DNA of 64,000 nucleotides from Candidatus Curtissbacteria bacterium. GTDB taxonomy: Bacteria > Patescibacteriota > Microgenomatia > Curtissbacterales > GWA2-41-24. Every line of letters starts with the position of its first letter. The stretch's first letter is position 1. The notes under the pieces are model-generated. The model was not told the origin of the DNA. It made no database searches and worked only from the letters and a program-made list of their open reading frames with translations. Positions 1,026-64,000 of the stretch are shown here, piece after piece. The position numbers and the translations under genes are program-made. The stretch is taken from positions 3,911 through 67,910 of the forward strand of contig JAUSJC010000005.1 of NCBI GenBank assembly GCA_030647775.1, in the 5' to 3' direction.

Positions 1026-1160
1026 TTAACAGTCAGCCAAAAATTACTTGCAATCACTTGTTCCCGCTATGAAACGCCGATCTTAATATTCTTATTTTTG
1101 TACATTCGTATCTTTATTACAACTCTTTATTACAACTAAAACTTTTATTCTATTTTCTTT

Positions 1161-1180
1161 TCGATTATTCGAATAATCGA
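1161..1180. promoter_or_regulatory. perfect 20-bp palindrome TCGATTATTCGAATAATCGA immediately 3' of the TrpR-like gene
   Basis: Read directly: reverse complement is identical to itself; a second copy of the core is at 1652-1669. Confidence 0.6.
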
Positions 1181-1183
1181 AAA

Positions 1184-2721: not shown

Positions 2722-2737
2722 TTTGCGTTAGTCGTTA

Positions 2738-2838
2738 GCCTGCCCGTCAAAGCCTTGGCGTCGGCGGGTCTTTCGTCGTTAGGCGACCTAATTTTAGGCC
2801 CGCAGTCCGAAGGACGAGGACCGCATGGCACTGTATAT
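2738..2838. repeat. intergenic composite of two dispersed repeat families (GC-rich GCCTGCCCGNCAAAGCCTTGGNGTCGGCGGG unit plus CCGCAG-hairpin-GACGAGGACCGCATGGCACTGTATAT unit)
   Basis: The first unit recurs at 40376-40410 and the second at 5301-5343, 11761-11800, 15349-15402 and other sites (see findings). Confidence 0.7.
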
Positions 2839-2956
2839 TGTACGACGCTTTCAGGTTTAAAATCAATAGGCGTTGAATCTAACCCCGCAATTCTGCGACA
2901 TCAAGAATATCCAATTTGACAAACAAAGTAGGAGAATAGTAAATTATAGGGCTTAA

Positions 2957-5195: not shown

Positions 5196-5691
5196 TAGCA
5201 GTCTTTTCCTAGTCCCGCCAGAAGTTTTTGACTACCGACACATTGGAGAGTAAATAGGCCGATAACACTCTACTCTAAAGCGCTGTATAGCAAAAAACCG
5301 TTAGGCCCGCAGTCCGAGCGGAGCGAAGGACGAGGACCGCAAGACTCAACCACCATTTACATTTCTGTTCTGGTCGCTTTGGACCTGAACGAAATCATAT
5401 TGTTGAGTCTTATAATATCTATTTTCACGCTTTTCAACCCGCATATTTTCACGGAATACTATAACTCTATCAAACTATATCACCACTTACTACCACCCCA
5501 CTCTCCCACTCCTCTGCTTTTAAGAGAATTTTTTGAGGCTAATTTGAAGCTAAATCGAAGCTAACTATTAACCATTGACTATCTACTATTAACCCCCGAT
5601 ACCCACTTCCCCGAGAAAAACTATGGGCTTTATTCTTGGCTCCTTAATTGGAAATTGAAAATTTGAAATTGGAAATTCCCGCGAGCGGGGT

Positions 5692-6501: not shown

Positions 6502-6524
6502 TTTAAGCGCTAAATGACGAATGA

Positions 6525-7106
6525 CTAACGCCTAACGTTTTTTGTCTTCACCTTAGTCTTTAGTCCTTCGTCGTTAGTCGCTGTTTTAATAACATGGCAA
6601 ATCGCCACAGCCAGTGCATCCGCCGCGTCGTCAATATAACCCTTCGCGGGCTTTGCCAGTTTATGTTTATGCAAATGGCGCATTACGTGCTTTTGAATCT
6701 CCTTCTTGTCTGATTTGCCGCTGCCTGTCACAGTCAGTTTGACCGAAAGCCCCTGATACTCAAATATCGGCACGCGATTGTTGTAACCGGCAATAGTTGA
6801 AAGCACTACTCCCCTTGCCTGCCCCACAGTCATTGCTGTTCTCGAGTTAATGCCAAAGAACAATTGCTCGATCGCTATACAATCCGGTTTATATCGTTTG
6901 AGAAGTACTTTTAAATCTTTGCCAATCGAAAAAAGCCTCATGGGCATCGCCTGTTCTTTGGGGGTAACAATACAGCCGTATTCGATAAGAGTTAGGCCAT
7001 TGGTCCTGAGCGAAGTCGAAGGACCGTTGTTCTTGGAACTGGGCTCTTTTTTTACCACGCCGTAACCGGTTGTCGCCGTTCCCGGATCTATACCAAAAAT
7101 TATCAT
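6525..7106 (-). CDS. ruvC: crossover junction endodeoxyribonuclease RuvC (C-terminal tail extended through a repeat element)
   Basis: MIIFGIDPGTATTGYGVV...IAIEQLFFGINSRTAM matches the RuvC catalytic N-terminus; the last ~20 codons overlap the CGTTAGTC/TGACTAA repeat cluster. Confidence 0.85.
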   Translation of the reverse strand: MIIFGIDPGTATTGYGVVKKEPSSKNNGPSTSLRTNGLTLIEYGCIVTPKEQAMPMRLFSIGKDLKVLLKRYKPDCIAIEQLFFGINSRTAMTVGQARGVVLSTIAGYNNRVPIFEYQGLSVKLTVTGSGKSDKKEIQKHVMRHLHKHKLAKPAKGYIDDAADALAVAICHVIKTATNDEGLKTKVKTKNVRR

Positions 7107-11191: not shown

Positions 11192-11242
11192 TGTAGCTAA
11201 ATTTTAGCAGTATACTTGGTTTATTTAAAGCTACACGTTAAA

Positions 11243-11296
11243 ATATACAGTGCCATGCGGTTCTCGTCCCGATGGATATCGGGGCTGCGGGCCTAG
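11243..11296 (-). repeat. family-A structured repeat (reverse orientation)
   Basis: ATATACAGTGCCATGCGGTTCTCGTC-hairpin(CCCGAT/ATCGGG)-GCTGCGGGCC is the reverse complement of the CCGCAG...CGCATGGCACTGTATAT consensus. Confidence 0.65.
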
Positions 11297-11751
11297 ATCC
11301 TATGGAAATATCTTTAGCAAAACCCCAAGACGCCAACGCGATTCTAGTCCTACAAACCCAAATTTACCGTGTAGAATCGCTTGCCCCAAACGCGAAAGAG
11401 CTGCTTTTGGCGCTAATCGACGCTGATTATTGTAGTGTTATTGTAGCCAGAGAAAACCTGCCTGCCGGCAAGGCAGGCGGCAAGGTCGTCGGCTCTGCTT
11501 TTCTCTTTTACCTTCCCCTGCCCGCCCACGGCAAAAATTTTGCATATCTGGAAGCAGTAGTCGTCGACGAAAAATCTCGGGGCAAAGGCATCGGTACCGC
11601 TATTTCCAAAAAGGCCATCGAGCTTGCCCGCGCCAACAATTGCTATAAAATGATCTTCACTTCCGGCTTCGACCGCGAAAAAATCCACAAACTCTACGAA
11701 AACCTGGGTTTCGCCAAATGGGGCTACGAATTCAGGATGAACCTAGACTAA
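11272..11751 (+). CDS. GNAT family N-acetyltransferase
   Basis: Acetyl-CoA binding motif VVDEKSRGKGIGTAISKKAIELAR; the start is probably the internal Met (MEISLAK) near 11302, because the 5' end overlaps a repeat. Confidence 0.8.
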   Translation: MDIGAAGLDPMEISLAKPQDANAILVLQTQIYRVESLAPNAKELLLALIDADYCSVIVARENLPAGKAGGKVVGSAFLFYLPLPAHGKNFAYLEAVVVDEKSRGKGIGTAISKKAIELARANNCYKMIFTSGFDREKIHKLYENLGFAKWGYEFRMNLD

Positions 11752-15254: not shown

Positions 15255-15410
15255 AGCAAAACAAGCTCTCTTATTACGACTCTGAAGAATGAAGAGGCGC
15301 AATACGCTCTCGTCTTTCGATAGCGAAGAATGAGCTATAAGCTCTCTTTAGCCCCGCAGTGCTGAGTTTATCGAAGCACGAGGAGCGCATGGCACTGTAT
15401 ATATTTTGAT
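15255..15410. repeat. convergent-gene spacer packed with family-C (AAGCTCTCTTAT) and family-A repeat units
   Basis: AACAAGCTCTCTTAT at 15260-15274, TAAGCTCTCTTTA at ~15335, family-A unit with hairpin GTGCT...AGCAC at 15349-15402. Confidence 0.6.
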
Positions 15411-17099: not shown

Positions 17100-17500
17100 C
17101 TTTGGCATTTTAGATTCGAGCTTGCGAGAATCGCATGGCCCTGTATATGCCAAGGCGAACTGCTGATATAGTAACTTCCAAATAAACCCATGTTGATATT
17201 GTCATCCTGAACTGACTTTGTCATCCTGAACTTGGTTCAGGATCTATTTCAGGATCTAGATGCCGAAATATACAGTGCCATGCGCCCTCGTTTCGCTCGG
17301 GCTAAAGTTCGGCATGACATCTACATTTATTCTATCAAAGCTAAGGGAGCTTCAACAAGTAGAGAAGTTTTGCTCCGCAAAATCGTTTTTAAAATATCTT
17401 TAGACCCGCAGTTCTGCACTGCAGAACGAGGATCGCAAGATTTTTTGTAATCAGAAAATTTTTAGGCGCGCAACGAAGTGAGCACCGCAAAATATTTTGT
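17100..17500. repeat. array of at least four family-A repeat units in mixed orientations plus a family-C half unit
   Basis: Units at 17124-17148 (+, partial), 17266-17308 (-), 17401-17439 (+), 17461-17493 (+); the ORF 17232-17450 in the track lies entirely in repeats and is probably spurious. Confidence 0.65.
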
Positions 17501-19197: not shown

Positions 19198-19249
19198 GTT
19201 CTTCTCGCTAAACGCTAAAAGACTGATGACTAAAGCTAAAAATCATGCG

Positions 19250-20116
19250 TTAGTCGTTTGTCGTTTTGTCGTTCAACGTCAAATAAAGCATTGCATCTTT
19301 AAGGTCTTTTGGCAAGTCCGATTCAAAAAATATCGGCTTTTCTGTTGCCGGATGGGCAAACTCCAAACTTTTGGCGTGCAAAAAAAGCCGCGGGCACCAA
19401 TTAAGGTCAAACTTTAAAAGTTTGGCGGGTGCATAAATTAAATCAGAAACCACAGCGTGGCCGATACTTTTTAAATGGACACGGATTTGATGAGTCCGGC
19501 CGGTTTTTGGACGAAGCAAAAATAGGGTGTAATCTCTGGCGTGATGTTTAAGATAATTGATCCTTGGCCTTGTCAAATTACTGTTCGAGCGAAGTCGAGA
19601 ACTATCTAACATATTACTTCTCGACTCGCTTCGCTCGCTCGAAGAATATAAAAGTTCATTAAACTTCTCCTCACTGATTTTGTATCGGTCCTCTACAACA
19701 AATTCGGTTCTCGACTCGCGTCCGCCGGCAACTACTCCGAATCTCCCAAATGAGCCAACTCTCCCAATCGACGCATCGATTTCTCCCCGATCTTTATCAA
19801 CCAACCCATGGACCAAGCCCAGATATTCTTTTTTAATTTTTCTTTCCTTAAATTGTTTTTGCAGATTGGCATATGCGCGCTCCGTCTTGGCAACAAGCAT
19901 AAGCCCCGATGTCTCCCGATCCAACCGATGGACAATGCCTGACCTACCTCCGATATTAGGATCCGACCCTTTAGATAAGACCGAACTCAAGTATTTGAGC
20001 ATCTGATCTTGAAGGGTCGGACCCTTATTCGTCTCGGATCGATTGACCACGAGCCCTGCTGGCTTATCCAAAACCAAAAGAAAGTCATCCTCGAATATAA
20101 TATTTAAATCATCCAT
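19250..20116 (-). CDS. rluA: RluA-family pseudouridine synthase carrying an in-frame low-complexity insertion
   Basis: LVLDKPAGLVVN...HRLDRETSGLMLVAKT...TGRTHQIRVH are RluA catalytic motifs; ~30 extra S/R-rich residues (SSSERSESRSNMLDSSRLRSNSN) are encoded by a palindromic repeat at ~19546-19663. Confidence 0.85.
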   Translation of the reverse strand: MDDLNIIFEDDFLLVLDKPAGLVVNRSETNKGPTLQDQMLKYLSSVLSKGSDPNIGGRSGIVHRLDRETSGLMLVAKTERAYANLQKQFKERKIKKEYLGLVHGLVDKDRGEIDASIGRVGSFGRFGVVAGGRESRTEFVVEDRYKISEEKFNELLYSSSERSESRSNMLDSSRLRSNSNLTRPRINYLKHHARDYTLFLLRPKTGRTHQIRVHLKSIGHAVVSDLIYAPAKLLKFDLNWCPRLFLHAKSLEFAHPATEKPIFFESDLPKDLKDAMLYLTLNDKTTND

Positions 20117-20131
20117 ATTACTCTTTCTACT

Positions 20132-20557
20132 TCAATGATTCGAATCATCGAAGTATTTAGGCTCGAATTTTACTAAAATTACAAAAATTAATATTAAAAT
20201 TCCTATTGTCACCGCGCTGTCTGCCAAATTAAAGCTCGGCCAGAATTTCAAATCAATAAAATCACGGACGCAACCCATCATCAACCGGTCTAAAATATTA
20301 GAAACTCCTCCGGCAACAATAAGCGCCAAAGCCAAAGAGATAATTTTCCTTTCTTGTCTTAACAGAAAATAGAAACAGACACTAACTACGACAATCGGCA
20401 CAATAAAATTTAAGATTCTCGCATTTTGAAAAAGCCCAAACGCGATTCCACTGTTACAGCTTGTGGCCAGCCTCGCCGAGTCTAGATGGACAAATTTTGC
20501 TTTAGAAACTTGGTCGAGAAAAATAATAAGCGGAATGATGAAAAGGGACAAACGCAC
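20132..20557 (-). CDS. lspA: lipoprotein signal peptidase II
   Basis: NSGIAFGLF and FNLADSAVTIGILILIF motifs; four TM helices. Confidence 0.85.
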   Translation of the reverse strand: MRLSLFIIPLIIFLDQVSKAKFVHLDSARLATSCNSGIAFGLFQNARILNFIVPIVVVSVCFYFLLRQERKIISLALALIVAGGVSNILDRLMMGCVRDFIDLKFWPSFNLADSAVTIGILILIFVILVKFEPKYFDDSNH

Positions 20558-22026: not shown

Positions 22027-22500
22027 ATGACAGCAACAGCACACGCATTAATCGGGGCATCGATAGCAGCAACGTTCACAAACCCGATTATCGGCATTCC
22101 TCTGGCTTTCGTTTCGCACTTTCTGGCAGACATTGTACCCCACTGGGATGTTGGTACAAACCATAGGCAAAAAAGCGTCTTTCGCTTAAGGATTGAAGCA
22201 ACTTTTGACGTTTTACTGGGTTTTGCCCTGTCATTTCTGCTTTTTGCCAAATTTGTTGAGCCAACTTACCTTTTTGTCATGATAATAGCCGCTCAGCTCC
22301 CGGACTGGCTTGGCACACCTTATTGGCTTTTTAACCTCAAATTTCCACCGTTTTCTTGGGCATATTACATTGGCCACAAAATCCAGAGCCGCATGCAGCT
22401 TCCGTGGGGCCTAGTTACCCAAATTGCCATTGTGGGACTGATCGTTGCCACTGCAATCTGGACAACTCCGGCCAAACTCGCTCTCGCCAGCCTTATATAA
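22027..22500 (+). CDS. membrane-bound metal-dependent hydrolase, YdjM/DUF457-like
   Basis: HALIGASIA...SHFLADIVPHWD pattern resembles the YdjM family. Confidence 0.45.
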   Translation: MTATAHALIGASIAATFTNPIIGIPLAFVSHFLADIVPHWDVGTNHRQKSVFRLRIEATFDVLLGFALSFLLFAKFVEPTYLFVMIIAAQLPDWLGTPYWLFNLKFPPFSWAYYIGHKIQSRMQLPWGLVTQIAIVGLIVATAIWTTPAKLALASLI

Positions 22501-24938: not shown

Positions 24939-25021
24939 GGGCAAGTGGCGGAATGGTATACGCGGTAGTCTCAAAAACTACTGGTCGCAAGACTGTGAGA
25001 GTTCGAATCTCTCCTTGCCCA
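24939..25021 (+). tRNA. tRNA-Leu (anticodon CAA), class II with long variable arm
   Basis: Folded by hand: acceptor GGGCAAG/CTTGCCC, anticodon stem GTAGT/ACTAC with loop CTCAAAA, variable arm with GCAA tetraloop, T-arm GAGAG-TTCGAAT-CTCTC, discriminator A; CCA not encoded. Confidence 0.75.
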
Positions 25022-25044
25022 CAAACTTGACACATGCGAGTATC

Positions 25045-25250
25045 TTTTTTTGCTTTAGCAAAAAACGTCTTAAAACTCGTGGGCGCAAGCCCGTGAGAGT
25101 TCGACTCTCTCTCTCAGCACTGACGCGTAGCTATCCTTTTTGCTTTAGCAAAAACGTGAGCGAAGCGAACTAAAAGCTATGAGCGCAAGCTCATGTGGGT
25201 TCGACTCCCACCTTGCCCACAATCAAAAGGGTTCGTTTTTCTCGTAGCGA
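25045..25250 (+). repeat. tandem tRNA 3'-half-like remnants (variable arm + T-arm + acceptor 3' strand), each preceded by an A/T-rich palindrome TTTTTGCTTTAGCAAAAA
   Basis: CGTGGGCGCAAGCCCGTGAGAGTTCGACTCTCTC... and GAGCGCAAGCTCATGTGGGTTCGACTCCCACCTTGCCCACA repeat the 3' architecture of the upstream tRNA-Leu (the second ends in the identical acceptor strand CTTGCCCACA); no matching 5' halves are present. Confidence 0.6.
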
Positions 25251-34398: not shown

Positions 34399-35418
34399 TT
34401 GGAATTTGTTATTTGGAGTTTAATTACAATGTCTGATTATCTTAAAACACAAATCGCCGACTTGGACCGAAAAATCGTCGAAGCCGAAAAGCTTTTGGCA
34501 GACCCTGATATGGCTGACCTTGCCCAAGAGGAGCTGGGAAAACTCCGCGAACAAAAATCTCAGCTTGAGTCATCTGTCATTGCAAGCATTGCCCCGCCTG
34601 CCGGACGGGCAGGGAAGCAATCAAATGACGAGATTGCCGCGTCCCCGCCAACATCTAACGAAGTTGTGGCGGGGACTCGCAATGACGGAAACTCAGCAAT
34701 TTTGGAAATCCGCGCCGCCGCCGGCGGTGACGAAGCCGGCCTTTTTGCCGGCGATCTGGCCCGCATGTACACCAGGTTTGCCGCCTCACAAAAATGGAAA
34801 GTCGAAGAACTGGATAAAAACGAAGGCGGCATCGGCAATATTAAAGAAATCATATATAAGCTTACCGGCCACGGCGTTTTTGAAAAACTGAAATATGAAT
34901 CCGGTGTCCACAGGGTCCAGCGGGTTCCCAAAACCGAATCTTCCGGCCGTATCCATACATCAACCGCCACTGTCGCGGTCCTTGCCGAAGTTGCCCCAAC
35001 CCAAGTCGTTATAAACCCCGCCGATATCCAGTTTGAAGCGTTCCGCGCCGGCGGCCACGGAGGTCAAAATGTTAATAAAGTCTCAACCGCTGTCCGCATA
35101 AAACATATCCCAAGCGGCATCATTGTCAAAGCCTCGACCGAAAGAGCCCAAGGCCAAAACCGCGCAATCGCCTTAGAACTACTCCGATCCCGCATTTTCC
35201 AAATGGAGGAAGAAAAACGCCTTTCCCAAATCTCCGGATCGCGCGCGAGCCAGCTTGGTTCGGGCGACAGGAGCGAAAAGATTCGTACTTACAACTTTCC
35301 GCAGGATCGGGTCACAGACCATAGGACAGGCAAATCGTATCACAATATCGAGAGCATTCTCAATGGGAATTTAGAAAAAATAACCGAAGACTTACAAAAT
35401 ATAACCCGGGGAAATTAA
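34399..35418 (+). CDS. prfA: peptide chain release factor 1
   Basis: GGQ motif (AGGHGGQNVN), domain-2 region RVPKTESSGRIHTS and C-terminal GSGDRSEKIRTYNFPQ. The likely start is the internal Met (MSDYLK) at ~34429; a ~35-aa insertion relative to typical RF1 lies at ~34570-34690. Confidence 0.9.
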   Translation: MEFVIWSLITMSDYLKTQIADLDRKIVEAEKLLADPDMADLAQEELGKLREQKSQLESSVIASIAPPAGRAGKQSNDEIAASPPTSNEVVAGTRNDGNSAILEIRAAAGGDEAGLFAGDLARMYTRFAASQKWKVEELDKNEGGIGNIKEIIYKLTGHGVFEKLKYESGVHRVQRVPKTESSGRIHTSTATVAVLAEVAPTQVVINPADIQFEAFRAGGHGGQNVNKVSTAVRIKHIPSGIIVKASTERAQGQNRAIALELLRSRIFQMEEEKRLSQISGSRASQLGSGDRSEKIRTYNFPQDRVTDHRTGKSYHNIESILNGNLEKITEDLQNITRGN

Positions 35419-37901: not shown

Positions 37902-39146
37902 TCAAAAGAGCTCTAGGGCTTTTTCCAGTTGCGTATCTAATTTGTCGTCTGCCTTAGGTTCAATTATAACATCCGGCGTAATCCCTACGCTGTTTATTGA
38001 TGTCCCGTTTGGCGTCAGCCACTTTGCAAAAGTAACATGGAGTGAAGAGCCGCCGGCAAACGGCACGACGTCCTGCACGCTCCCCTTGCCAAAAGTCTTC
38101 TCACCAATAAGTTTCCCGCGGTTGTTGTCTTTGACTGCACCCGAAAAAATCTCAGCAGCCGATGCCGAGCCGCCGTTAACCAGAACCGAAAGAGGCACCG
38201 AAAGCAATTTCCCTGTGTGATCCGCGCCAAGCGCCGTCACCGTCCCATCAGAAGTTTCTTGCTTTACAACTGTCCCCGAAATAAATTCACTTGCCACATG
38301 GATTCCCGAAGTAAGTAACCCGCCCGGGTTATTGCGCATATCAACAATTACCCCATAAACTTTATTGGAAATAATATCGGAAACCGCGCTGTCCCATTCA
38401 GTGTCTGTCGTGTCTCCGAATCGTGAAATATGGATAACCCCGATTTTCCCCTTTTTGCTGTCTTTGTATTCCACTTCTACGCTTTTAACTGTAATTTGCG
38501 CCCGCTCGATTTCTTTTTCATAAGGCTTATCGGCTCCTTCGCGCATCAAAGTCAGCTTTACTTTTGTTCCCAACTTACCGCGGATCAAATCAACTGCCTC
38601 CGGCAGTGTTATATCGAAAGTATCCTTATTGCCGATCTTGAGAATAAGGTCTTTAGGCTTAACCCCTGCCGCCTCGGCCGGCGTTCCCTTGAGTGGAGCA
38701 ATAACGACTAAACGCTTGTCCTTATTAAAACCGATTTGAATTCCCACACCCTGATAACTTCCGGCCAGTTCTTCCGTAATTGCCTGGTTCTGCTTTGGGT
38801 CCAAAAATACCGTATAAGGGTCGCCAAGCGACTTTACCATTCCCGCAATTGCCCCATACAAAATCTTCTGTCCGTCAATGGCGGTCTTGTCCAAATACTT
38901 TTGGGGCAAAGTATCAAAAACCCTCCAGAAAAGCGAAAAATCTACGTTCTGGTAGGCCGCCGGTGTCTGGTTGGCAAAAGTAATGTTCGGGATAAAACCT
39001 TTTTTATCAATTGCCACCTTCTTCTGTCCCAAGGCAAAGCCCAGAGCAAAGAAAATTAGCCCAACCATAAAAAATTGGATAACAAAATTTAAAACTCCTG
39101 AAGATTTTTTAGAAGAGGAGATCTTTGGGATTTGCAAATTGACCAT
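37902..39146 (-). CDS. ctpA: carboxyl-terminal processing (S41) protease
   Basis: PDZ domain plus the S41 catalytic region LVNGGSASAAEIFSGAVKDNNRGKLIGEKTFGKGSVQ. Confidence 0.85.
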   Translation of the reverse strand: MVNLQIPKISSSKKSSGVLNFVIQFFMVGLIFFALGFALGQKKVAIDKKGFIPNITFANQTPAAYQNVDFSLFWRVFDTLPQKYLDKTAIDGQKILYGAIAGMVKSLGDPYTVFLDPKQNQAITEELAGSYQGVGIQIGFNKDKRLVVIAPLKGTPAEAAGVKPKDLILKIGNKDTFDITLPEAVDLIRGKLGTKVKLTLMREGADKPYEKEIERAQITVKSVEVEYKDSKKGKIGVIHISRFGDTTDTEWDSAVSDIISNKVYGVIVDMRNNPGGLLTSGIHVASEFISGTVVKQETSDGTVTALGADHTGKLLSVPLSVLVNGGSASAAEIFSGAVKDNNRGKLIGEKTFGKGSVQDVVPFAGGSSLHVTFAKWLTPNGTSINSVGITPDVIIEPKADDKLDTQLEKALELF

Positions 39147-39533: not shown

Positions 39534-39618
39534 GTTTTAATTTTGACTAATGACTAAAGACAAATGACTAAAGTTATAAATTTTTGCCTCAGTCGTTAGT
39601 CCTTCGTCTTTCGACGAC

Positions 39619-40245: not shown

Positions 40246-40761
40246 CTACTTCTTTCCTTTTGCTTTTGGCGCTTTACTTGTCGATTTTACCGGTTTTGCC
40301 TCTTTTTTGGAAGTTGTGACCTTAGTGGTAACTGTTACTTTCGGCTTAACCTCCACCTTCGGCTCTTCCTTCTTTTCACTTTGCCTGCCCGCCAAAGCCT
40401 TGGTGTCGGCGGGGCTTTCGACTTTGCCTGCCCGTCCCCCTGGCGGGACTTTCGACTTTGACTTTCTTTGCGGTTTTACTTTAATTAAGAGGTGTCTCAA
40501 AACCGCTTCCTGCTCCAGCCTTATCTTTCTATCAAGCGCCAAAATCTCTGCCGGATCCGCGTCAAAATTAAACAGGAAATATTCTGCCTCTGTTTGTTTG
40601 GCAATCTTATATGCCAGAGGCTTTTTGCCCATCTTTTCGCTTTTTACATTTTGGGCATTGGCTTCCTTCAAAAACTTCTCGACCCTCTCGAAAAGCGCCG
40701 CCGCGCCGTCAACAGTCCCAACAACAATAAGTTCGTACATGGAGGAAATGATATCAGACAC
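40246..40761 (-). CDS. rpsF: 30S ribosomal protein S6 with lysine-rich C-terminal extension containing repeat-derived sequence
   Basis: MYELIVV...KPLAYKI...EAEYFLFNF is the S6 core; the tail (VPPGGRAGKVESPADTKALAGRQ) is encoded by the GC-rich repeat at 40376-40440. Confidence 0.8.
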   Translation of the reverse strand: MSDIISSMYELIVVGTVDGAAALFERVEKFLKEANAQNVKSEKMGKKPLAYKIAKQTEAEYFLFNFDADPAEILALDRKIRLEQEAVLRHLLIKVKPQRKSKSKVPPGGRAGKVESPADTKALAGRQSEKKEEPKVEVKPKVTVTTKVTTSKKEAKPVKSTSKAPKAKGKK

Positions 40762-42456: not shown

Positions 42457-42660
42457 ATGATCCAGAAAACTATTCAGGTCGGAAATTCCATCGCTGTAAT
42501 TATCCCTAAAAAAGTTCTCGACGAAAAAAGCATCAAAGTTGGCGACGCTGTCAATTTTTCAGTCGATCCCGTTTTTACTGCGGATCGCGAAATCCACGCC
42601 CTCACGCAGAGATTGATAAAACAATACCGCAGTGCCCTCGAAGAACTCGCTTCTAGGTGA
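42457..42660 (+). CDS. AbrB/MazE-type (SpoVT_AbrB) antitoxin
   Basis: VGNSIAVIIPKKVL...GDAV swapped-hairpin motif; 4-bp overlap with the downstream doc gene. Confidence 0.65.
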   Translation: MIQKTIQVGNSIAVIIPKKVLDEKSIKVGDAVNFSVDPVFTADREIHALTQRLIKQYRSALEELASR

Positions 42661-43034
42661 AATATCTAACACCCCAAGACGTTATCCAAATTCATTATGA
42701 ACTGGTGGAGGCCACTGGCGGATTACAAGGTTTGCGTGACCTGGGGCTTCTGGAATCGGCAGTGCTTAGGCCCGAGTCCAGCTTCGGAGGCAAAGACCTT
42801 TATCCAAATCTTATCTTAAAAGCCGCAGCACTCATGCACTCTCTTCTTTTAAATCACGTCTTTGCTGACGGCAATAAAAGAACAGCAACCGTATCAATGA
42901 TTGAATTTTTAATAACAAATGGTAAAAAGTTTGAAGCAACTAACCGGGAAATAGTTAACTTTGCTCTCTGGGTGGAAAACAAAAAACCCAAATTAGAAGA
43001 AATTGCCGCGTGGATTAAAAAACACACCAAGTAG
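42657..43034 (+). CDS. doc: Doc (death-on-curing) toxin, Fic family
   Basis: Fic motif HVFADGNKRTA. Confidence 0.85.
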   Translation: MKYLTPQDVIQIHYELVEATGGLQGLRDLGLLESAVLRPESSFGGKDLYPNLILKAAALMHSLLLNHVFADGNKRTATVSMIEFLITNGKKFEATNREIVNFALWVENKKPKLEEIAAWIKKHTK

Positions 43035-43156
43035 CAAAAACGTGAGCTTGGAAACTAAGGTCGTGGTTCTCTGATTTCCTGCCTGCCGGCAGGCAAGGTC
43101 GATCAAAATAAATTATCGGCACTCCAAGCAAGACATAATTCATATAGGAAATAATT

Positions 43157-59673: not shown

Positions 59674-60678
59674 CTAAGAATTCGGATCAATTCGTGTATC
59701 CTTCTTTTTAACTTCATGTCCGCCGAAAGCATTGCGAAGTGCCGCAACCATTCTTGCCGCAAAACTTCCGGAAACCGCTTCGTCTTGTCTGGACCTGGAT
59801 CTAAAATCTCTTGACGCTTCGATAATTTCCACCGGCACTTCTTCTTCTTTGGCTTGCTCGATCATCCAATCCCCCTCACCGGACGCATCAATGTAACCGG
59901 TAATTTGGGCAAGCTTAGGATCTTTTTCAAGTGCCTCTATAGTTCTTGCCATCATAAATCCGGAGTTGAGAGTCCCTTTTTGGTAAAGCTTGGCAACTCC
60001 CAAAAGGTCTAAATTGTATGGTGATTTTTCCAAAACTCCAAAACCTTCGCCAATAGACTGCATAATTCCGTATTCGATTCCGTTGTGGACCATCTTTACA
60101 AAATGCCCCGCCCCGCCCTCTCCAAAATATTCATGGCCTCCACCCGGTTTTGCCAGTGAGTCTAAAATCGGTTTGAGGTATTCATAACCTTCGACGTTGC
60201 CGCCGGCCATTAAAGGGTATCCGTCGGTTGCGGCAATAATTCCACCGGAAACTCCAATCCCCAAAAACTTAATCCCTTTCCCCTGAAAATATTCATACCT
60301 TCTTTGCGTATCGCTAAATCTGGCGTTGCCACCATCAATAACGACATCTCCGGCTTCCACATATTCGGCAACTCCCCCCGGCCCCATCAAATTTTCCTCC
60401 GTCGCTTGTCCTGCCGGCAGCATCAGCCAGACGATCCGTGGTTTCTCTAACTTTACAACCAGATCTTCTATCGATTCTGCCGCTTTTAAATTATCCTTCC
60501 AGTTAAATTTTGATATTTGATTTTTGATATTTGATATTCTCTCTCTCGTCCTGTTCCACACCACAACCTCATGCCCCTCGCTAAGAAGCTTCATCACCAT
60601 TCGATTGCCCATTCTTCCAAGACCAATAAAACCGAGCTTCATAGTATTGATAATATAATTATTGTTCGAGCGAAGCAA
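59674..60678 (-). CDS. gnd: 6-phosphogluconate dehydrogenase, decarboxylating (short form)
   Basis: MKLGFIGLGRMGNRMVMKL NAD(P)-binding N-terminus and 6PGD C-terminal domain. Confidence 0.85.
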   Translation of the reverse strand: MLRSNNNYIINTMKLGFIGLGRMGNRMVMKLLSEGHEVVVWNRTRERISNIKNQISKFNWKDNLKAAESIEDLVVKLEKPRIVWLMLPAGQATEENLMGPGGVAEYVEAGDVVIDGGNARFSDTQRRYEYFQGKGIKFLGIGVSGGIIAATDGYPLMAGGNVEGYEYLKPILDSLAKPGGGHEYFGEGGAGHFVKMVHNGIEYGIMQSIGEGFGVLEKSPYNLDLLGVAKLYQKGTLNSGFMMARTIEALEKDPKLAQITGYIDASGEGDWMIEQAKEEEVPVEIIEASRDFRSRSRQDEAVSGSFAARMVAALRNAFGGHEVKKKDTRIDPNS

Positions 60679-60716
60679 GAAGAATAAGCTCTCTTATTGT
60701 TCGAGCTTGTCGAGAA
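60661..60716. repeat. family-C/F repeat unit (ATTGTTCGAGC...AATAAGCTCTCTTATTGTTCGAGCTTGTCGAGAACTACC)
   Basis: Matches the intragenic copy in rluA (19567-19592) and intergenic units at 39189-39222 and 63095-63128. Confidence 0.6.
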
Positions 60717-61028
60717 CTACCACTGATTTGACCATTCACCATTAATTAGTTTTCGTTTCTTTTCTTGATTCCAATCTTTAATTTGTCTCTCACGTGCTCG
60801 GGCAGTAGGTAAATCGGTATGTTCTTCAACATATACTAATTTTTTGACTCCATGTTTAGCCGTGTACTTACCTCCAAGGCCTGATATATATTGCTCCAAT
60901 CTTAACTCTGGTCTCCATGTCAACCCAGTGTAATAGGTATCATCAAGACACTCGATAATGTAGACATACCATTTCCAATTTTTCTGTAAGGCACTTCTCG
61001 ACTTCGCTCGAAGAATATAGCTGGACAC
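60717..61028 (-). CDS. GIY-YIG nuclease superfamily protein (UPF0213/YhbQ-like)
   Basis: KWYVYIIECLDDTYYTGLT...KHGVKKLVYVEEHTDLPTARARERQIKDW; the first ~12 codons of the track ORF are repeat-derived, so the true start is probably internal. Confidence 0.75.
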   Translation of the reverse strand: MSSYILRAKSRSALQKNWKWYVYIIECLDDTYYTGLTWRPELRLEQYISGLGGKYTAKHGVKKLVYVEEHTDLPTARARERQIKDWNQEKKRKLINGEWSNQW

Positions 61029-61744: not shown

Positions 61745-63095
61745 TTTTTATGACTTTCCATTTTGAACCTTCGAACGTATCTTCAATCACTACACCCATT
61801 TCCAAAAGTTCTTCGCGTATTTTATCACTTTCTTCAAAATTTCCCGCCTTCCTCAATTCCTCTCTCTCATCAATTAGTTCCTTTGCCCCTTTTGGCAAAA
61901 CCGCTTTTTTAATTTCTCCAAGTCCAAGCCCCAAAACCTCATCCATTACCAAAATTGACCGGTGCTTTGCCGAAGTCGGGTTATCGCTTTTTACCGTTTC
62001 CCACATTATCGCGATGGCCCTCGGCATATCCAAATCGTTATTGACGGCGTTTTTGAAATCGTTCTCCAGCCCCGCGCATCCGATTTTTGGATCATCCCAA
62101 GTCGCAATCTGATCACGCAAATTGGAAAGAGCGTTTTGCGCCGCCTCCAAACTTTCCCAAGTGAAATTTAATTTAGAACGATAGTGTGCGGTCAAAAATA
62201 AATACCGGAGTGCAAGCGGCTCAAAACCCTGCCTGCCGGCAGGCAGGCCTTTTTTAATAACATCACTAAGCGTATAAATATTTCCAAGGCTCTTTGACAT
62301 CTTTTGCCCGTCTACTAAAAGATGTTCTCCCTCCAACCAAAAGTTTACAAACTTCTTACCCGTTGCCGCCTCGCTTTGGGCAATTTCGTTTTCGTGGTGT
62401 GGAAACAAAAGATCGACACCGCCGCAATGGATATCAAAATGCTCGCCCAGTGCCTCCATACTCATTGCGCTGCATTCAATATGCCAACCAGGCCGACCCT
62501 CACCAAACGGCGCCGGCCAACTGGGCTCTCTATCTTTTTTATTTTTCCAAAGCGCAAAATCACTCCAAGATTCTTTGTCGTATAAATCGTCGTTAATTCT
62601 TGCGCCTTTTTTTAACTGGCGCTTTTCTAAACCAGAAAGCTTTCCGTAATCCGGAAATTTTTCAACCGAAAAATAAACTCCGTCATCCGCCTTGTAAGCA
62701 AAACCTTTATCCAGAAGCACTACGATGATTCGTATCATCGTAGTGATATTTTCTGTTGCTCGAGGATACTCATTTGCTCTTAAGATATTTAGTTTCTCAA
62801 GATCCTCAAAAAACGCTCTTTCGTATTTTGCAGTTAAATCTCTTAACTCTAAACTCTCATCTCTCGCCCTCTTTATAATCTTGTCATCAATATCCGTAAT
62901 ATTCATTACATGATTGACTTTGTAACCATCAAAAGTTAGGGCTTTTTTTAAAACGTCTTCAAAGACAAACGTCCGCCAGTTGCCAATGTGCACATAGTCG
63001 TAAACCGTCGGGCCGCAGGTATACATACCGACTTTGCCATCGACAATCGGCTTAAACTCCTCAACTTTCTTGGATAAATAATTGTAAAGTTTCAT
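61737..63095 (-). CDS. cysS: cysteinyl-tRNA synthetase
   Basis: HIGN, class I KMSKS (KMSKSLGN) and zinc-binding Cys residues; carries an ~8-aa insert encoded by the GC-rich palindrome at 62227-62249. Confidence 0.95.
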   Translation of the reverse strand: MKLYNYLSKKVEEFKPIVDGKVGMYTCGPTVYDYVHIGNWRTFVFEDVLKKALTFDGYKVNHVMNITDIDDKIIKRARDESLELRDLTAKYERAFFEDLEKLNILRANEYPRATENITTMIRIIVVLLDKGFAYKADDGVYFSVEKFPDYGKLSGLEKRQLKKGARINDDLYDKESWSDFALWKNKKDREPSWPAPFGEGRPGWHIECSAMSMEALGEHFDIHCGGVDLLFPHHENEIAQSEAATGKKFVNFWLEGEHLLVDGQKMSKSLGNIYTLSDVIKKGLPAGRQGFEPLALRYLFLTAHYRSKLNFTWESLEAAQNALSNLRDQIATWDDPKIGCAGLENDFKNAVNNDLDMPRAIAIMWETVKSDNPTSAKHRSILVMDEVLGLGLGEIKKAVLPKGAKELIDEREELRKAGNFEESDKIREELLEMGVVIEDTFEGSKWKVIKNE

Positions 63096-63584: not shown

Positions 63585-64000
63585 TCAGTAGTCCTTGCGG
63601 CCTTCGATGGCGCGGCGCAAAGTTACCTCATCGGCATATTCCAGCTCCGCACCGATTGGAATCCCCCGGGCAATCCTTGTCGTTTTAATTCCCAAGGGTT
63701 TTGTTAAGCGTTGGATATACATCGCCGTCGCTTCCCCTTCCATTGAAGGGTTCGTCGCTAAAATTAATTCCTTAACTTCTAGGGTCCGACCCTTTTCAAC
63801 ACCGCTTTTCGCATTACTGGAATCCGATTTTGCAAGGGTCGGACCCTTGAGTCTTGGCAAAAGCTCGTTAATCCTGAGTTCCTCCGGCCCGATATTGTCC
63901 AGTGGCGCGATTACCCCATGCAAAACATGGTAAAGCCCGCCAAAACTTCCGGATTTTTCAATCGCCCAAACGTCTAGCGGATCCTCAACGATACAAATAA
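63585..64000 (-). CDS. recR: recombination protein RecR (5' part lies beyond the window), carrying an in-frame ~21-aa insertion
   Basis: The frame is open to the window edge ([43 protein letters not shown] = RecR Cys4/HhH region) and continues into the Toprim domain [19 protein letters not shown]. The insert [26 protein letters not shown] is encoded by paired palindromes at 63783-63853. Confidence 0.8.

What the first reader, a model, noticed from the sequence alone, without database searches (positions are those of the whole stretch)
19546..19663. Palindromic repeat elements inserted in-frame inside conserved housekeeping genes (RPE-like behaviour)
Five conserved housekeeping genes (rluA, recR, rpsF, prfA, cysS) carry extra low-complexity peptide segments encoded by dispersed palindromic repeat units that also occur intergenically; ruvC shows a weaker case, a C-terminal tail running into a TGACTAA repeat cluster. 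rluA has a ~30-aa S/R-rich insert (19546-19663) encoded by a TTCGAGCGAAGTCGAGAA...TTCTCGACTCGCTTCGCTC hairpin element whose flanks match intergenic copies at 60661-60716 and 60985-61015. recR has a ~21-aa insert (63783-63853) made of two copies of the 15-bp palindrome AAGGGTCGGACCCTT around a 41-bp spacer. The rpsF C-terminal tail contains GC-rich repeat units (40376-40440) also found intergenically at 2744-2776. prfA has a ~35-aa insert (34570-34690) containing a GC-rich hairpin. cysS has an ~8-aa insert encoded by CTGCCTGCCGGCAGGCAGG (62227-62249). All keep the reading frame. This mirrors Rickettsia palindromic elements, which are not generally described outside that lineage.
Basis: partly seen in the sequence, partly recalled or inferred. 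Interest (0 to 1): 0.75.

Follow-up and report, generated by a model that had tools for sequence, protein, structure and literature searches.

The report
Hairpin repeats inside housekeeping genes
A small-genome Candidatus Curtissbacteria (CPR) bacterium carries short hairpin-forming DNA repeats in-frame inside essential genes, and one repeat family has the same ends as the repeats flanking a small GIY-YIG nuclease gene 41 kb away, as in the nuclease-linked palindromic repeats known from Neisseria, Rickettsia and Wolbachia.

Summary
The window is a Candidatus Curtissbacteria MAG. rluA, recR, cysS, a GNAT gene, rpsF, ruvC and probably prfA carry extra peptide segments encoded by strong hairpins. 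The rluA element (19570-19657, minus strand) is a two-tier hairpin. Its outer stem is TTCGAGC/GCTCGAA and its inner stem GTCGAGAA/TTCTCGAC. It lies in a disordered loop of a confident AlphaFold model.

The new result is that these same arms bracket a 103-aa single-domain GIY-YIG nuclease gene at 60717-61028. In 15 loci of this nuclease clade, 11 have the left arm upstream, 12 the right arm downstream and 10 have both. Background arm density is 0.08 per kb. Stems covary at 10 of 20 pairs. Between syntenic relatives, 7 of 15 protein indels of 5 aa or more are hairpin-coded, and they are present or absent lineage by lineage.

The closest known system is NTS-ssnA-NTS (Ssn ssDNA nucleases, 2025), together with the CGTC-tagged REPs that include some Rickettsia RPEs. 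The published Ssn motif does not match here, so this is a distinct variant. Mobilisation by the nuclease is inferred, not shown. The 15-bp (AAGGGTCGGACCCTT) and 18-bp (CTGCCTGCCGGCAGGCAG) palindromes are separate, unexplained families.

The parts
19570..19657 (-). Type A two-tier hairpin element inside rluA, read in the sense orientation. It runs TATTC-TTCGAGC-(GAGCGAAGC bulge)-GAGTCGAGAAGT, then a 16-nt loop, then AGTTCTCGAC-TTC-GCTCGAA-CAGTAAT. It encodes LYSSSERSESRSNMLDSSRLRSNSN.
   Evidence: Covariance model hit of 95.7 bits on the minus strand against 39.6 on the plus strand. Folds. Codon-level view. pLDDT is below 50 for residues 160-176.
19250..20116 (-). rluA host gene (RluA-family pseudouridine synthase, 288 aa)
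   Evidence: NCBIfam TIGR00005. PDB alignments. 100% identical to a Candidatus Curtissbacteria protein.
60717..61028 (-). 103-aa single-domain GIY-YIG nuclease ORF lying between the left and right arms of the type A element. Its N-terminal residues YILRAKSRS are translated from the left arm.
   Evidence: Pfam PF01541, E = 2.4e-15. Homologs are 70-83% identical across CPR lineages. The nearest solved structures are UPF0213 proteins 1zg2 and 1ywl.
60995..61012 (-). Left arm TTCGAGCGAAGTCGAGAA at the 5' end of the GIY-YIG ORF, identical to the arm in rluA
60700..60716 (-). Right arm TTCTCGACAAGCTCGAA, starting immediately after the GIY-YIG stop codon
60651..60699 (-). AATAAGAGAGCTTATT motif followed by a second, degenerate right arm (CTTCTTGCTTCGCTCGAAC), upstream of the gnd-like gene
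   Evidence: Weak covariance model hit of 18.5 bits.
19957..20026 (-). Type B pair: two 15-bp palindromes (AAGGGTCCGACCCTT and AAAGGGTCGGATCCT) 55 nt apart, forming a 14-bp stem around native rluA codons (KGPT...KGSDP)
   Evidence: Fold z = -6.9. The two arms co-occur in 5 orthologs, without compensatory change.
63780..63848 (-). Type B pair in recR: the same 15-bp palindromes 54 nt apart, bounding a ~19-aa insert
   Evidence: Fold z = -5.8. PDB alignment.
62229..62246 (-). Type C perfect 18-nt palindrome CTGCCTGCCGGCAGGCAG in cysS (LPAGRQ)
   Evidence: Absent from the syntenic ortholog in L117, present in diverged form in L104.
11457..11478 (+). Type C palindrome variant in a GNAT acetyltransferase gene (11272-11751), encoding LPAGKAG.
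   Evidence: Absent from the 82%-identical ortholog in L081.
43079..43096 (.). Copy of the type C palindrome just downstream of a doc-type toxin ORF (42657-43034) and outside every ORF of 100 aa or more
   Evidence: (I16)
34593..34676 (+). Two GC-rich hairpins in prfA (CCCGCCTGCCGGACGGGCAGGG and GTCCCCGCCAAC...GTGGCGGGGAC), encoding APPAGRAGK...SPPTSNEVVAGT
   Evidence: Fold z = -3.8. The PCRF domain resumes downstream.
40380..40447 (-). GC-rich repeat units in the rpsF C-terminal tail
   Evidence: D11 is 87% identical to 2735-2780, and I25 is related to the prfA hairpin. The S6 domain ends at residue 94-96.
2735..2780 (.). Copy of the rpsF-tail unit lying between ORFs, upstream of xerC
   Evidence: D11
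6505..6590 (-). Hairpin built of GACTAA/GACGAA units that contains the last ~20 codons and the stop codon of ruvC. Related copies lie at 39549-39616 and 19229-19290.
   Evidence: D4. DNA fold z = -6.6. The RuvC domain ends at residue 171.

Best explanation
The extra peptide segments are translated copies of short hairpin-forming repeat elements that have lodged in tolerant loops and tails of housekeeping proteins in a compact CPR genome.

For the element in the flagged interval (type A) the family can be named by its anatomy. It is a directional, two-tier hairpin of about 70-90 nt with conserved ends TATTC-TTCGAGC...GCTCGAA-CAATAA and an inner stem GTCGAGAA/TTCTCGAC. The same left and right arms bracket a ~90-105-aa single-domain GIY-YIG nuclease gene, giving the order left arm, nuclease gene, right arm. 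The rluA copy is the gene-less miniature form of that unit.

By analogy with NTS-ssnA-NTS of Neisseria and with REP/RAYT systems, I infer three steps. The nuclease recognises the hairpin extruded in single-stranded DNA. It nicks next to it. This activity underlies the spread or maintenance of the repeats. Copies that fall in essential genes survive only if they keep the frame, lack stop codons and sit in surface loops.

Shown here: the inserts, their repeat nature, presence/absence polymorphism, stem covariation, and the association of the arms with the GIY-YIG gene. Inferred: ssDNA cleavage, mobility and the role of selection. The 15-bp and 18-bp palindromes behave similarly in coding DNA, but they have no demonstrated link to this nuclease.
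For: Inserts relative to solved homologs and orthologs.

The hairpin and its exact 18-mer repeat.

The element is conserved at the DNA level in rluA orthologs, with a nested extra hairpin in L083 and decay in L084.

A GIY-YIG ORF lies between the arms in the window.

Translated arms appear at homolog N- and C-termini (ILRAKSRS..., HSSRLG).

In 15 loci, 11 have the left arm upstream, 12 the right arm downstream and 10 both. Elsewhere there are 12 arms in 152 kb.

Across 71 loci of the wider clade, 21 have perfect inverted repeats of 12 nt or more flanking the gene, against 0 of 61 controls. The arms share the core GAGC-N3-GTCGA.

A covariance model finds further copies lying between ORFs, and every one scores higher in the orientation of the nuclease gene.

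10 of 20 stem pairs show changes on both sides. 91.5% of cells are paired, against 47% or less when partners are slid. 0 of 500 shuffles reach the observed score.

7 of 15 lineage-specific indels of 5 aa or more between syntenic orthologs fold with z < -2.

The rluA insert maps to a loop with pLDDT below 50, at the tip of two helices, in a model with mean pLDDT 90.

Only 1 of 3 sense frames of the rluA element is open.

Precedent for a GIY-YIG gene flanked by its hairpin repeats, with ssDNA-specific cleavage: PMC11893778. Precedent for REP-type palindromes in coding regions: PMC3733652.
Against: No biochemical or population evidence of cleavage or transposition exists.

The GIY-YIG gene sits in conserved synteny (cysS-pgl-GIY-gnd) in three genomes, so this copy looks resident or domesticated rather than recently mobile.

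In four loci, including the two syntenic ones, the left arm next to the gene has diverged and no longer pairs perfectly (TTCGACCTTGTGGAGAA; L104 more diverged still).

In the sampled CPR DNA the type A element was found inside a gene at only one orthologous site, rluA. All other copies lie between ORFs, and most are next to the nuclease gene.

The published Ssn-related motif has 0 hits in the window and none within 500 nt of the GIY-YIG gene in any of the 80 metagenome loci. The nearest solved relatives are UPF0213 proteins, so membership of the characterised Ssn family is unproven.

Confidence: 0.6

Rival explanations
1. The origins are mixed. Only the type A hairpin is tied to the GIY-YIG gene. 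The 15-bp palindrome pairs, the 18-bp palindrome and the GC-rich CCGCC-type hairpins are independent mini-palindromes. They spread by some other route: another enzyme, gene conversion, or template-switch copying. This largely complements the main explanation rather than replacing it.
For: No sequence relation exists between types A, B and C. The type C 18-mer recurs unchanged in distant CPR loci that are not next to the nuclease (L110, L114, L138), and it nests inside type A right arms (L109, L116). The type B arms in rluA flank native codons and replace them without a length change on the left side.
Against: No alternative enzyme or mechanism was identified in the window. Nesting of type C inside type A shows only co-residence.
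Confidence: 0.5
2. The hairpins flanking the GIY-YIG gene are regulatory or terminator structures, and the nuclease has a host function such as repair or control of incoming ssDNA, as proposed for SsnA in Neisseria. Dispersed and intragenic copies are then by-products of recombination, not of nuclease-driven mobility.
For: The gene is in conserved synteny in three genomes. Solo right-arm-like motifs lie directly upstream of start codons. SsnA is proposed to restrict transforming ssDNA, not to transpose.
Against: The gene is bracketed by inverted arms in a fixed left-gene-right order in many unrelated contexts. Complete gene-less hairpins occur kilobases away from the gene and inside rluA.
Confidence: 0.25
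3. The hairpins are selected mRNA structures, for example for stability, RNase processing or translational pausing, and the peptides are incidental.
For: RNA folds are strong. Stems covary. The rluA element is in the sense orientation.
Against: The same element occurs outside ORFs and around a nuclease gene. Close orthologs lack it. The type B stem shows decay rather than compensation. Covariation is equally expected for a DNA hairpin.
Confidence: 0.1
4. These are ordinary lineage-specific low-complexity loops, and the palindromy reflects biased composition.
For: The segments are Ser/Arg/Gly/Pro-rich. One (rpsF) does not fold better than shuffles (z = -0.27).
Against: Exact 18-mers recur at distant sites, with expectations of 0.06 and 0.00. 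Covariance model hits reach E = 1e-24. 7 of 15 indels fold with z < -2.
Confidence: 0.03

Closest known systems
NTS/SRM hairpin repeats with SsnA single-domain GIY-YIG ssDNA nucleases (Chenal et al., Nat Commun 2025, PMC11893778)
   Same: A ~90-105-aa single-domain GIY-YIG protein whose gene is bracketed on both sides by copies of a directional hairpin repeat, an IS-like repeat-gene-repeat layout. Further gene-less copies occur elsewhere. Genomes of symbionts with reduced genomes are enriched in such repeats.
   Different: The repeat here does not match the published SRM consensus: 0 hits in the window and none within 500 nt of the gene in 80 loci. It has a two-tier stem with core GAGC-N3-GTCGA and no CGTC tag. 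The protein's nearest solved relatives are UPF0213 proteins, and cd10448 membership is untested. NTS lies inside genes in only 2% of cases, whereas here hairpins are a major source of protein indels. No biochemistry exists for this clade.
Rickettsia palindromic elements (RPE; Ogata et al. 2000, 2002) and Wolbachia protein-coding palindromes
   Same: Palindromic repeats inserted in-frame in conserved, often essential, genes of a reduced genome. They are translated into extra surface segments, vary in presence between relatives, and also occur in intergenic DNA.
   Different: There is no sequence relation. The elements here are shorter (18-90 nt, against roughly 100-150 nt for RPE-1, a figure from my own knowledge). 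Several unrelated families coexist. The lineage is CPR, not Alphaproteobacteria. For type A an associated nuclease gene carrying the same arms is present.
REP/BIME elements with RAYT (IS200/IS605-like Y1) transposases, and GTAG- or CGTC-tagged REP superfamilies (PMC3733652)
   Same: Short hairpins acted on as ssDNA. The enzyme gene is flanked by its own repeats. Repeats cluster in alternating arrays next to the gene. Copies are occasionally intragenic.
   Different: The associated enzyme is a GIY-YIG nuclease, not a Y1 transposase. Neither a GTAG nor a CGTC tag is visible at the ends (alignment A6).
MITEs (miniature inverted-repeat transposable elements)
   Same: A gene-less miniature that shares terminal inverted repeats with a longer, gene-bearing unit.
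   Different: No DDE transposase is involved and no target-site duplication was recognised. The whole element is essentially one hairpin.

Membership tests
Ssn/SRM system (PMC11893778) | Single-domain GIY-YIG protein of about 94 aa (under 150 aa) | tested here: met
   103-aa ORF. Pfam GIY-YIG covers residues 19-91 and no other domain is found. Homologs are 87-107 aa.
Ssn/SRM system (PMC11893778) | [quoted passage not shown] | not testable with these tools
   Neither a CDD search nor the SsnA sequence is available. The nearest solved structures are UPF0213 proteins BH0048 (E = 7e-15) and EF2693. NCBIfam gives no hit.
Ssn/SRM system (PMC11893778) | Gene flanked on both the 5' and 3' sides by copies of a hairpin repeat | tested here: met
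   Window: left arm at 60995-61012 and right arm at 60700-16. 10 of 15 loci have both arms, against a background of 0.08 arms per kb. 21 of 71 loci have perfect flanking inverted repeats of 12 nt or more, against 0 of 61 controls.
Ssn/SRM system (PMC11893778) | Repeats fit the SRM consensus HGTCWYN(0-2)YYVSBRHN(0-5)WNVSBRGN(0-2)RNCYNB | tested here: not met
   0 matches in the window. 0 matches within 500 nt of the GIY-YIG gene in 80 loci.
Ssn/SRM system (PMC11893778) | Site-specific cleavage of ssDNA only, next to the hairpin, on one strand | not testable with these tools
   This needs purified protein and oligonucleotide assays. The only indirect support is the element's directionality: the covariance model scores 95.7 bits on one strand and 39.6 on the other.
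Ssn/SRM system (PMC11893778) | Tens to hundreds of dispersed repeat copies per genome | tested here: inconclusive
   Only 64 kb of this genome is available. It holds one complete hairpin, the two arms around the gene, and several solo arm-like motifs.
Rickettsia palindromic elements (RPE) | Palindromic repeat inserted in-frame in conserved protein genes and compatible with the fold (surface location) | tested here: met
   The rluA insert has pLDDT below 50 and lies between two helices of a model with mean pLDDT 90.
Rickettsia palindromic elements (RPE) | Sequence membership of RPE-1 to RPE-8, or the CGTC-tagged superfamily for RPE-4 and RPE-6 | tested here: not met
   No CGTC tag is present at either end of the aligned elements (A6).
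REP/RAYT (REPtron) | GTAG-tagged hairpins flanking an IS200/IS605-like Y1 transposase gene | tested here: not met
   The element ends read TATTC...CAATAA, without GTAG. The flanked gene is a GIY-YIG nuclease. The window was not scanned exhaustively for a RAYT gene.
MITE | Terminal inverted repeats shared with an autonomous element, plus target-site duplications | tested here: inconclusive
   Shared terminal arms are shown. No flanking direct repeat is evident in alignment A6, but filled and empty sites were not compared at base resolution for type A.

The most novel reading that the evidence does not exclude
A large, uncharacterised clade of small GIY-YIG proteins, closer in sequence to UPF0213 than to anything characterised, is the cognate nuclease of a hairpin-repeat superfamily that has not been described. 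The superfamily has the core GAGC-N3-GTCGA and is found from CPR bacteria to DNA of about 70% G+C. In CPR genomes these and companion mini-palindromes are a leading source of insertions in essential proteins. That would extend the Ssn paradigm to a second GIY-YIG clade and would identify a general engine of protein indel evolution in ultra-small bacteria.
Probability: 0.3. Interest if true: 0.7.

Novelty: new variant of a known kind. Interest (0 to 1): 0.55.

Why it matters
Palindromic repeats translated inside essential proteins have been a curiosity of Rickettsia and a few other symbionts, and no enzyme had been clearly tied to them until the 2025 Ssn work.

This window shows the same behaviour in an unrelated, ultra-small CPR bacterium. 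For one family it places the gene-less intragenic hairpin and a nuclease gene bracketed by the same arms in one 64-kb stretch. That makes the link between nuclease and repeat directly testable with one small protein and two oligonucleotides.

If the 7-of-15 figure generalises, hairpin repeats are a main source of length variation in CPR housekeeping proteins. That matters for annotation, for phylogenomic alignments of CPR marker genes, and for understanding how minimal genomes tolerate selfish DNA when there is almost no intergenic space.

Tried and rejected

2. The window's own RluA is not on record for an exact look-up.

3. Rfam has no family for these elements. With gathering thresholds the whole window gave one tRNA. 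Permissive scans of the hairpins gave only chance miRNA-like hits.

4. A viral-contig scan for the type B pair found nothing.

5. tblastn of the GIY-YIG protein found no homolog near the high-GC viral-contig hairpins.

6. A peptide-profile search for other proteins hosting the translated element failed. The first query was too short. The second collected 61 candidates and gave one hit. The range of host genes for type A therefore remains unknown.

7. The type B stem in five rluA orthologs shows no compensatory changes and decays in one of them. There is no support for a selected structure there.

8. The published SRM consensus does not match. I therefore do not file the element as an SRM.

9. 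The strand carrying the left-to-right reading is the G-rich strand in 8 of 11 loci. This is suggestive of a bias toward the lagging-strand template, but it is confounded with gene orientation and I do not rely on it.

10. The supplementary data of the Ssn paper are not held.
Full report
**Source and gene identities.** The window's RluA protein is 100% identical to a protein of a Candidatus Curtissbacteria MAG (CPR/Microgenomates). G+C is 39-49% and GC skew is uniformly negative on the plus strand. NCBIfam and Pfam confirm rluA, recR, rpsF, prfA, cysS and ruvC.

**The flagged interval.** rluA (19250-20116, minus strand) has two matched stretches against solved RluC/RluD structures. About 48 residues (148-196) lie unmatched between them. 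Thirty Curtissbacteria orthologs range from 253 to 333 aa. The same site, between F-x-x-L-L and N-Y-L-K, is either minimal or carries segments of variable length with recurring motifs (LYSSSDP, GESRSL, SSRLRSNN).

- At the codon level these motifs are translations of a conserved DNA element: TAT TCT TCG AGC ... GAG TCG AGA AGT, a loop, then AGT TCT CGA C.. GCT CGA ACA ATA.
- It folds as a two-tier hairpin with outer stem TTCGAGC/GCTCGAA and inner stem GTCGAGAA/TTCTCGAC (RNA z = -3.1 and -4.4; DNA z = -4.0).
- In L083 a further small palindrome (TCCGCCAACTGGCGGA) is nested in the left internal loop. In L084 the element is decayed.
- An AlphaFold model (mean pLDDT 90.4) puts residues 160-176 at pLDDT below 50, at the tip of two helices. 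The hairpin-coded part is therefore a disordered surface loop.
- Only one of the three sense frames of the element is open.

**The other genes.**
- cysS has an 8-aa insert relative to solved CysRS. Comparison with two syntenic orthologs shows that it is the perfect 18-nt palindrome CTGCCTGCCGGCAGGCAG. It is present in the window, diverged in L104 and absent in L117. L104 and L117 each carry their own private hairpin-coded inserts.
- recR has a ~19-aa insert bounded by two copies of AAGGGTCGGACCCTT.
- The same pair, at the same 54-55 nt spacing, occurs in rluA (19957-20026). There it flanks native codons (KGPT...KGSDP). Five orthologs have both arms together. There are no compensatory changes, and one ortholog shows decay.
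- The rpsF tail shares a 46-nt unit (87% identity) with an intergenic copy at 2735-2780.
- prfA has two in-frame hairpins. Their status as an insert is likely but unverified.
- The ruvC tail and stop codon lie in a strong hairpin built of GACTAA/GACGAA units.
- A seventh case was found: a GNAT gene (11272-11751) with LPAGKAG from a variant of the 18-mer. It is absent from an 82%-identical ortholog.

**An unbiased test.** I aligned all ORF pairs shared between the window and the syntenic loci L081, L104 and L117, plus L083 and L084. I then folded every lineage-specific indel of 5 aa or more. Seven of 15 have z < -2 against same-length coding controls. Within L104 two different genes (cysS and pgl) share the unit CCAAGGCTTCGAGGGGCAAG.

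**The link to a nuclease gene.** On the minus strand the order is:
- left arm TTCGAGCGAAGTCGAGAAGT (61012-60993);
- a 103-aa ORF;
- stop codon TAG;
- right arm TTCTCGACAAGCTCGAAC (60716-60699).

The ORF is a single-domain GIY-YIG nuclease (Pfam E = 2.4e-15). Homologs are 70-83% identical across Curtissbacteria, Daviesbacteria and other Patescibacteria. Several begin with ILRAKSRS or end with HSSRLG, which are translated arms.

A metagenome scan with the protein alignment returned 80 loci.
- Of the 14 closest loci plus the window, 11 have a left arm at the 5' end, 12 a right arm just after the stop, and 10 both.
- Elsewhere in these loci there are 12 arms in 152 kb.
- Complete gene-less hairpins sit beside the gene in alternating arrays (L107, L108, L109, L112).
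- In the wider clade (38-50% identity, other phyla), 21 of 71 genes are bracketed by perfect inverted repeats of 12 nt or more, against 0 of 61 controls. These arms are variants such as CCTGAGCTTGTCGAAGG and share the core GAGC-N3-GTCGA.
- The same core, extended by CCGTTCG.../...CGAACGG, recurs as apparently intergenic hairpins in viral contigs, most of them 63-73% G+C.

**Structure and direction of the element.** A covariance model built from eight hairpins finds nine more copies. All of them lie between ORFs, and all score higher on the strand of the nuclease gene. On the model-fitted alignment, 10 of 20 pairs change on both sides. 91.5% of cells pair, against 47% or less when partners are slid, and no shuffle reaches the observed score. 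The alignment was fitted to the model, which favours the structure.

The canonical left arm is 26 nt and carries a GCG(A/T)AGC bulge. The right arm is 17-18 nt. The rluA copy has this orientation on its coding strand. From my own knowledge, d(GCGAAGC) is an unusually stable DNA mini-hairpin. The DNA fold places a small stem there. This is a hint of function at the ssDNA level, no more.

**Comparison with what is known.** Chenal et al. (PMC11893778) showed that Neisseria NTS/dRS3 hairpins flank ssnA, a 94-aa single-domain GIY-YIG gene. They also showed that SsnA cuts only ssDNA next to the hairpin, and that Rickettsia and Wolbachia are among the SRM-rich genomes. They note the IS-like repeat-gene-repeat layout, and that only 2% of NTS copies are inside genes. 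Di Nocera et al. (PMC3733652) placed dRS3 and Rickettsia RPE-4 and RPE-6 in one CGTC-tagged REP superfamily and reported REPs within coding regions in several taxa.

The present case works like these systems. It fails one defining test: the published SRM consensus has no match in the window, and none within 500 nt of the GIY-YIG gene in any of the 80 loci. The protein's nearest solved relatives are UPF0213 proteins. Rfam has no matching family. The literature searches found no report of such elements in CPR bacteria, nor any paper holding both "Rickettsia palindromic element" and "GIY-YIG".

**Limits.**
- Nuclease activity and mobility are inferred.
- The GIY-YIG gene is syntenic in three genomes, and in four loci its left arm has diverged. 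This fits a resident or domesticated copy.
- Type A was seen inside a gene at only one orthologous site.
- The 15-bp and 18-bp palindromes account for most of the listed inserts, but no enzyme is linked to them. Their lengths (15 and 18 nt) preserve the frame automatically, and all six frames of the 18-mer are open.
- Why two unrelated genes carry the 15-mer as a pair 54-55 nt apart, around native sequence in one case, is unexplained.

**Verdict.** The flagged element belongs to a hairpin family bracketing a small GIY-YIG nuclease gene. This is a new variant of a known kind, in a lineage where the literature searches found no report of it.

Noticed in passing
window 2789-2842, 11239-11269 (minus), 15372-15405, 17118-17148 and 17268-17285 (minus), 5296-5354: A conserved intergenic unit occurs four to five times: a GC-rich hairpin (GGCCCGCAGTCCGAAGGACGAGGACCGC) followed by CATGGCACTGTATAT, which resembles an extended -10 box. 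It could be a promoter module or a small RNA start.
   Followed up: no
window 15263, 21976 (minus), 39171, 39209, 39279, 60686: The motif AATAAGAGAGCTTATT (stem AATAAG/CTTATT, loop AGAG) occurs six times. In the copies read it lies upstream of gene starts, often next to right-arm-like sequences TTCTCG(A)CAAGCTCGAA that abut the ATG (cysS at 63095, the gene at 22027, the gene at 39146). It may be a 5' leader or translation signal derived from, or mimicked by, the element arm.
   Followed up: partly
L085-L102 (IMG/VR contigs; most 63-73% G+C): Most of these contigs carry the same 18-nt core (TTCGAGCGAAGTCGAGAA ... TTCTCGACTTCGCTCGAA), extended by CCGTTCG/CGAACGG, as apparently intergenic hairpins. 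No GIY-YIG homolog is found on these contigs by tblastn. The core is conserved across a ~30-point difference in G+C.
   Followed up: partly
window 6513-6580, 39549-39616, 19229-19290: Hairpins built of degenerate GACTAA/GACGAA/GACAAA units sit at the 3' ends of ruvC, ssb and rluA. The C-terminal residues and stop codons lie inside them. They may be terminators or a fourth repeat family.
   Followed up: partly
window 24939-25211: Three ~100-nt-spaced copies of a tRNA-like 3' half (GGTTCGA(A/C)TC T-arm) are present, but ARAGORN and Rfam call only the first as a tRNA (tRNA-Leu CAA). The other two may be degenerate or unusual tRNAs.
   Followed up: partly
L104 2053-2139 and 3133-3198; L117 1452-1523 and 3065-3154; L104 4272-4403: The syntenic relatives carry their own private hairpin inserts in cysS, pgl and gnd. 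One unit (CCAAGGCTTCGAGGGGCAAG) is shared by two genes of L104. One insert contains a CCTTCGACTTCGCTCAGG arm of the sister hairpin family.
   Followed up: partly
window 42657-43034: A doc-type (death-on-curing) toxin ORF has a copy of the 18-nt palindrome 45 nt downstream.
   Followed up: no
window 1155-1181 and 1652-1674; 20135-20152: The AT-rich palindrome ATTATTCGAATAATCGAA occurs at both ends of the ORF at 1184-1672, and in variant form at the rluA/lspA junction.
   Followed up: no
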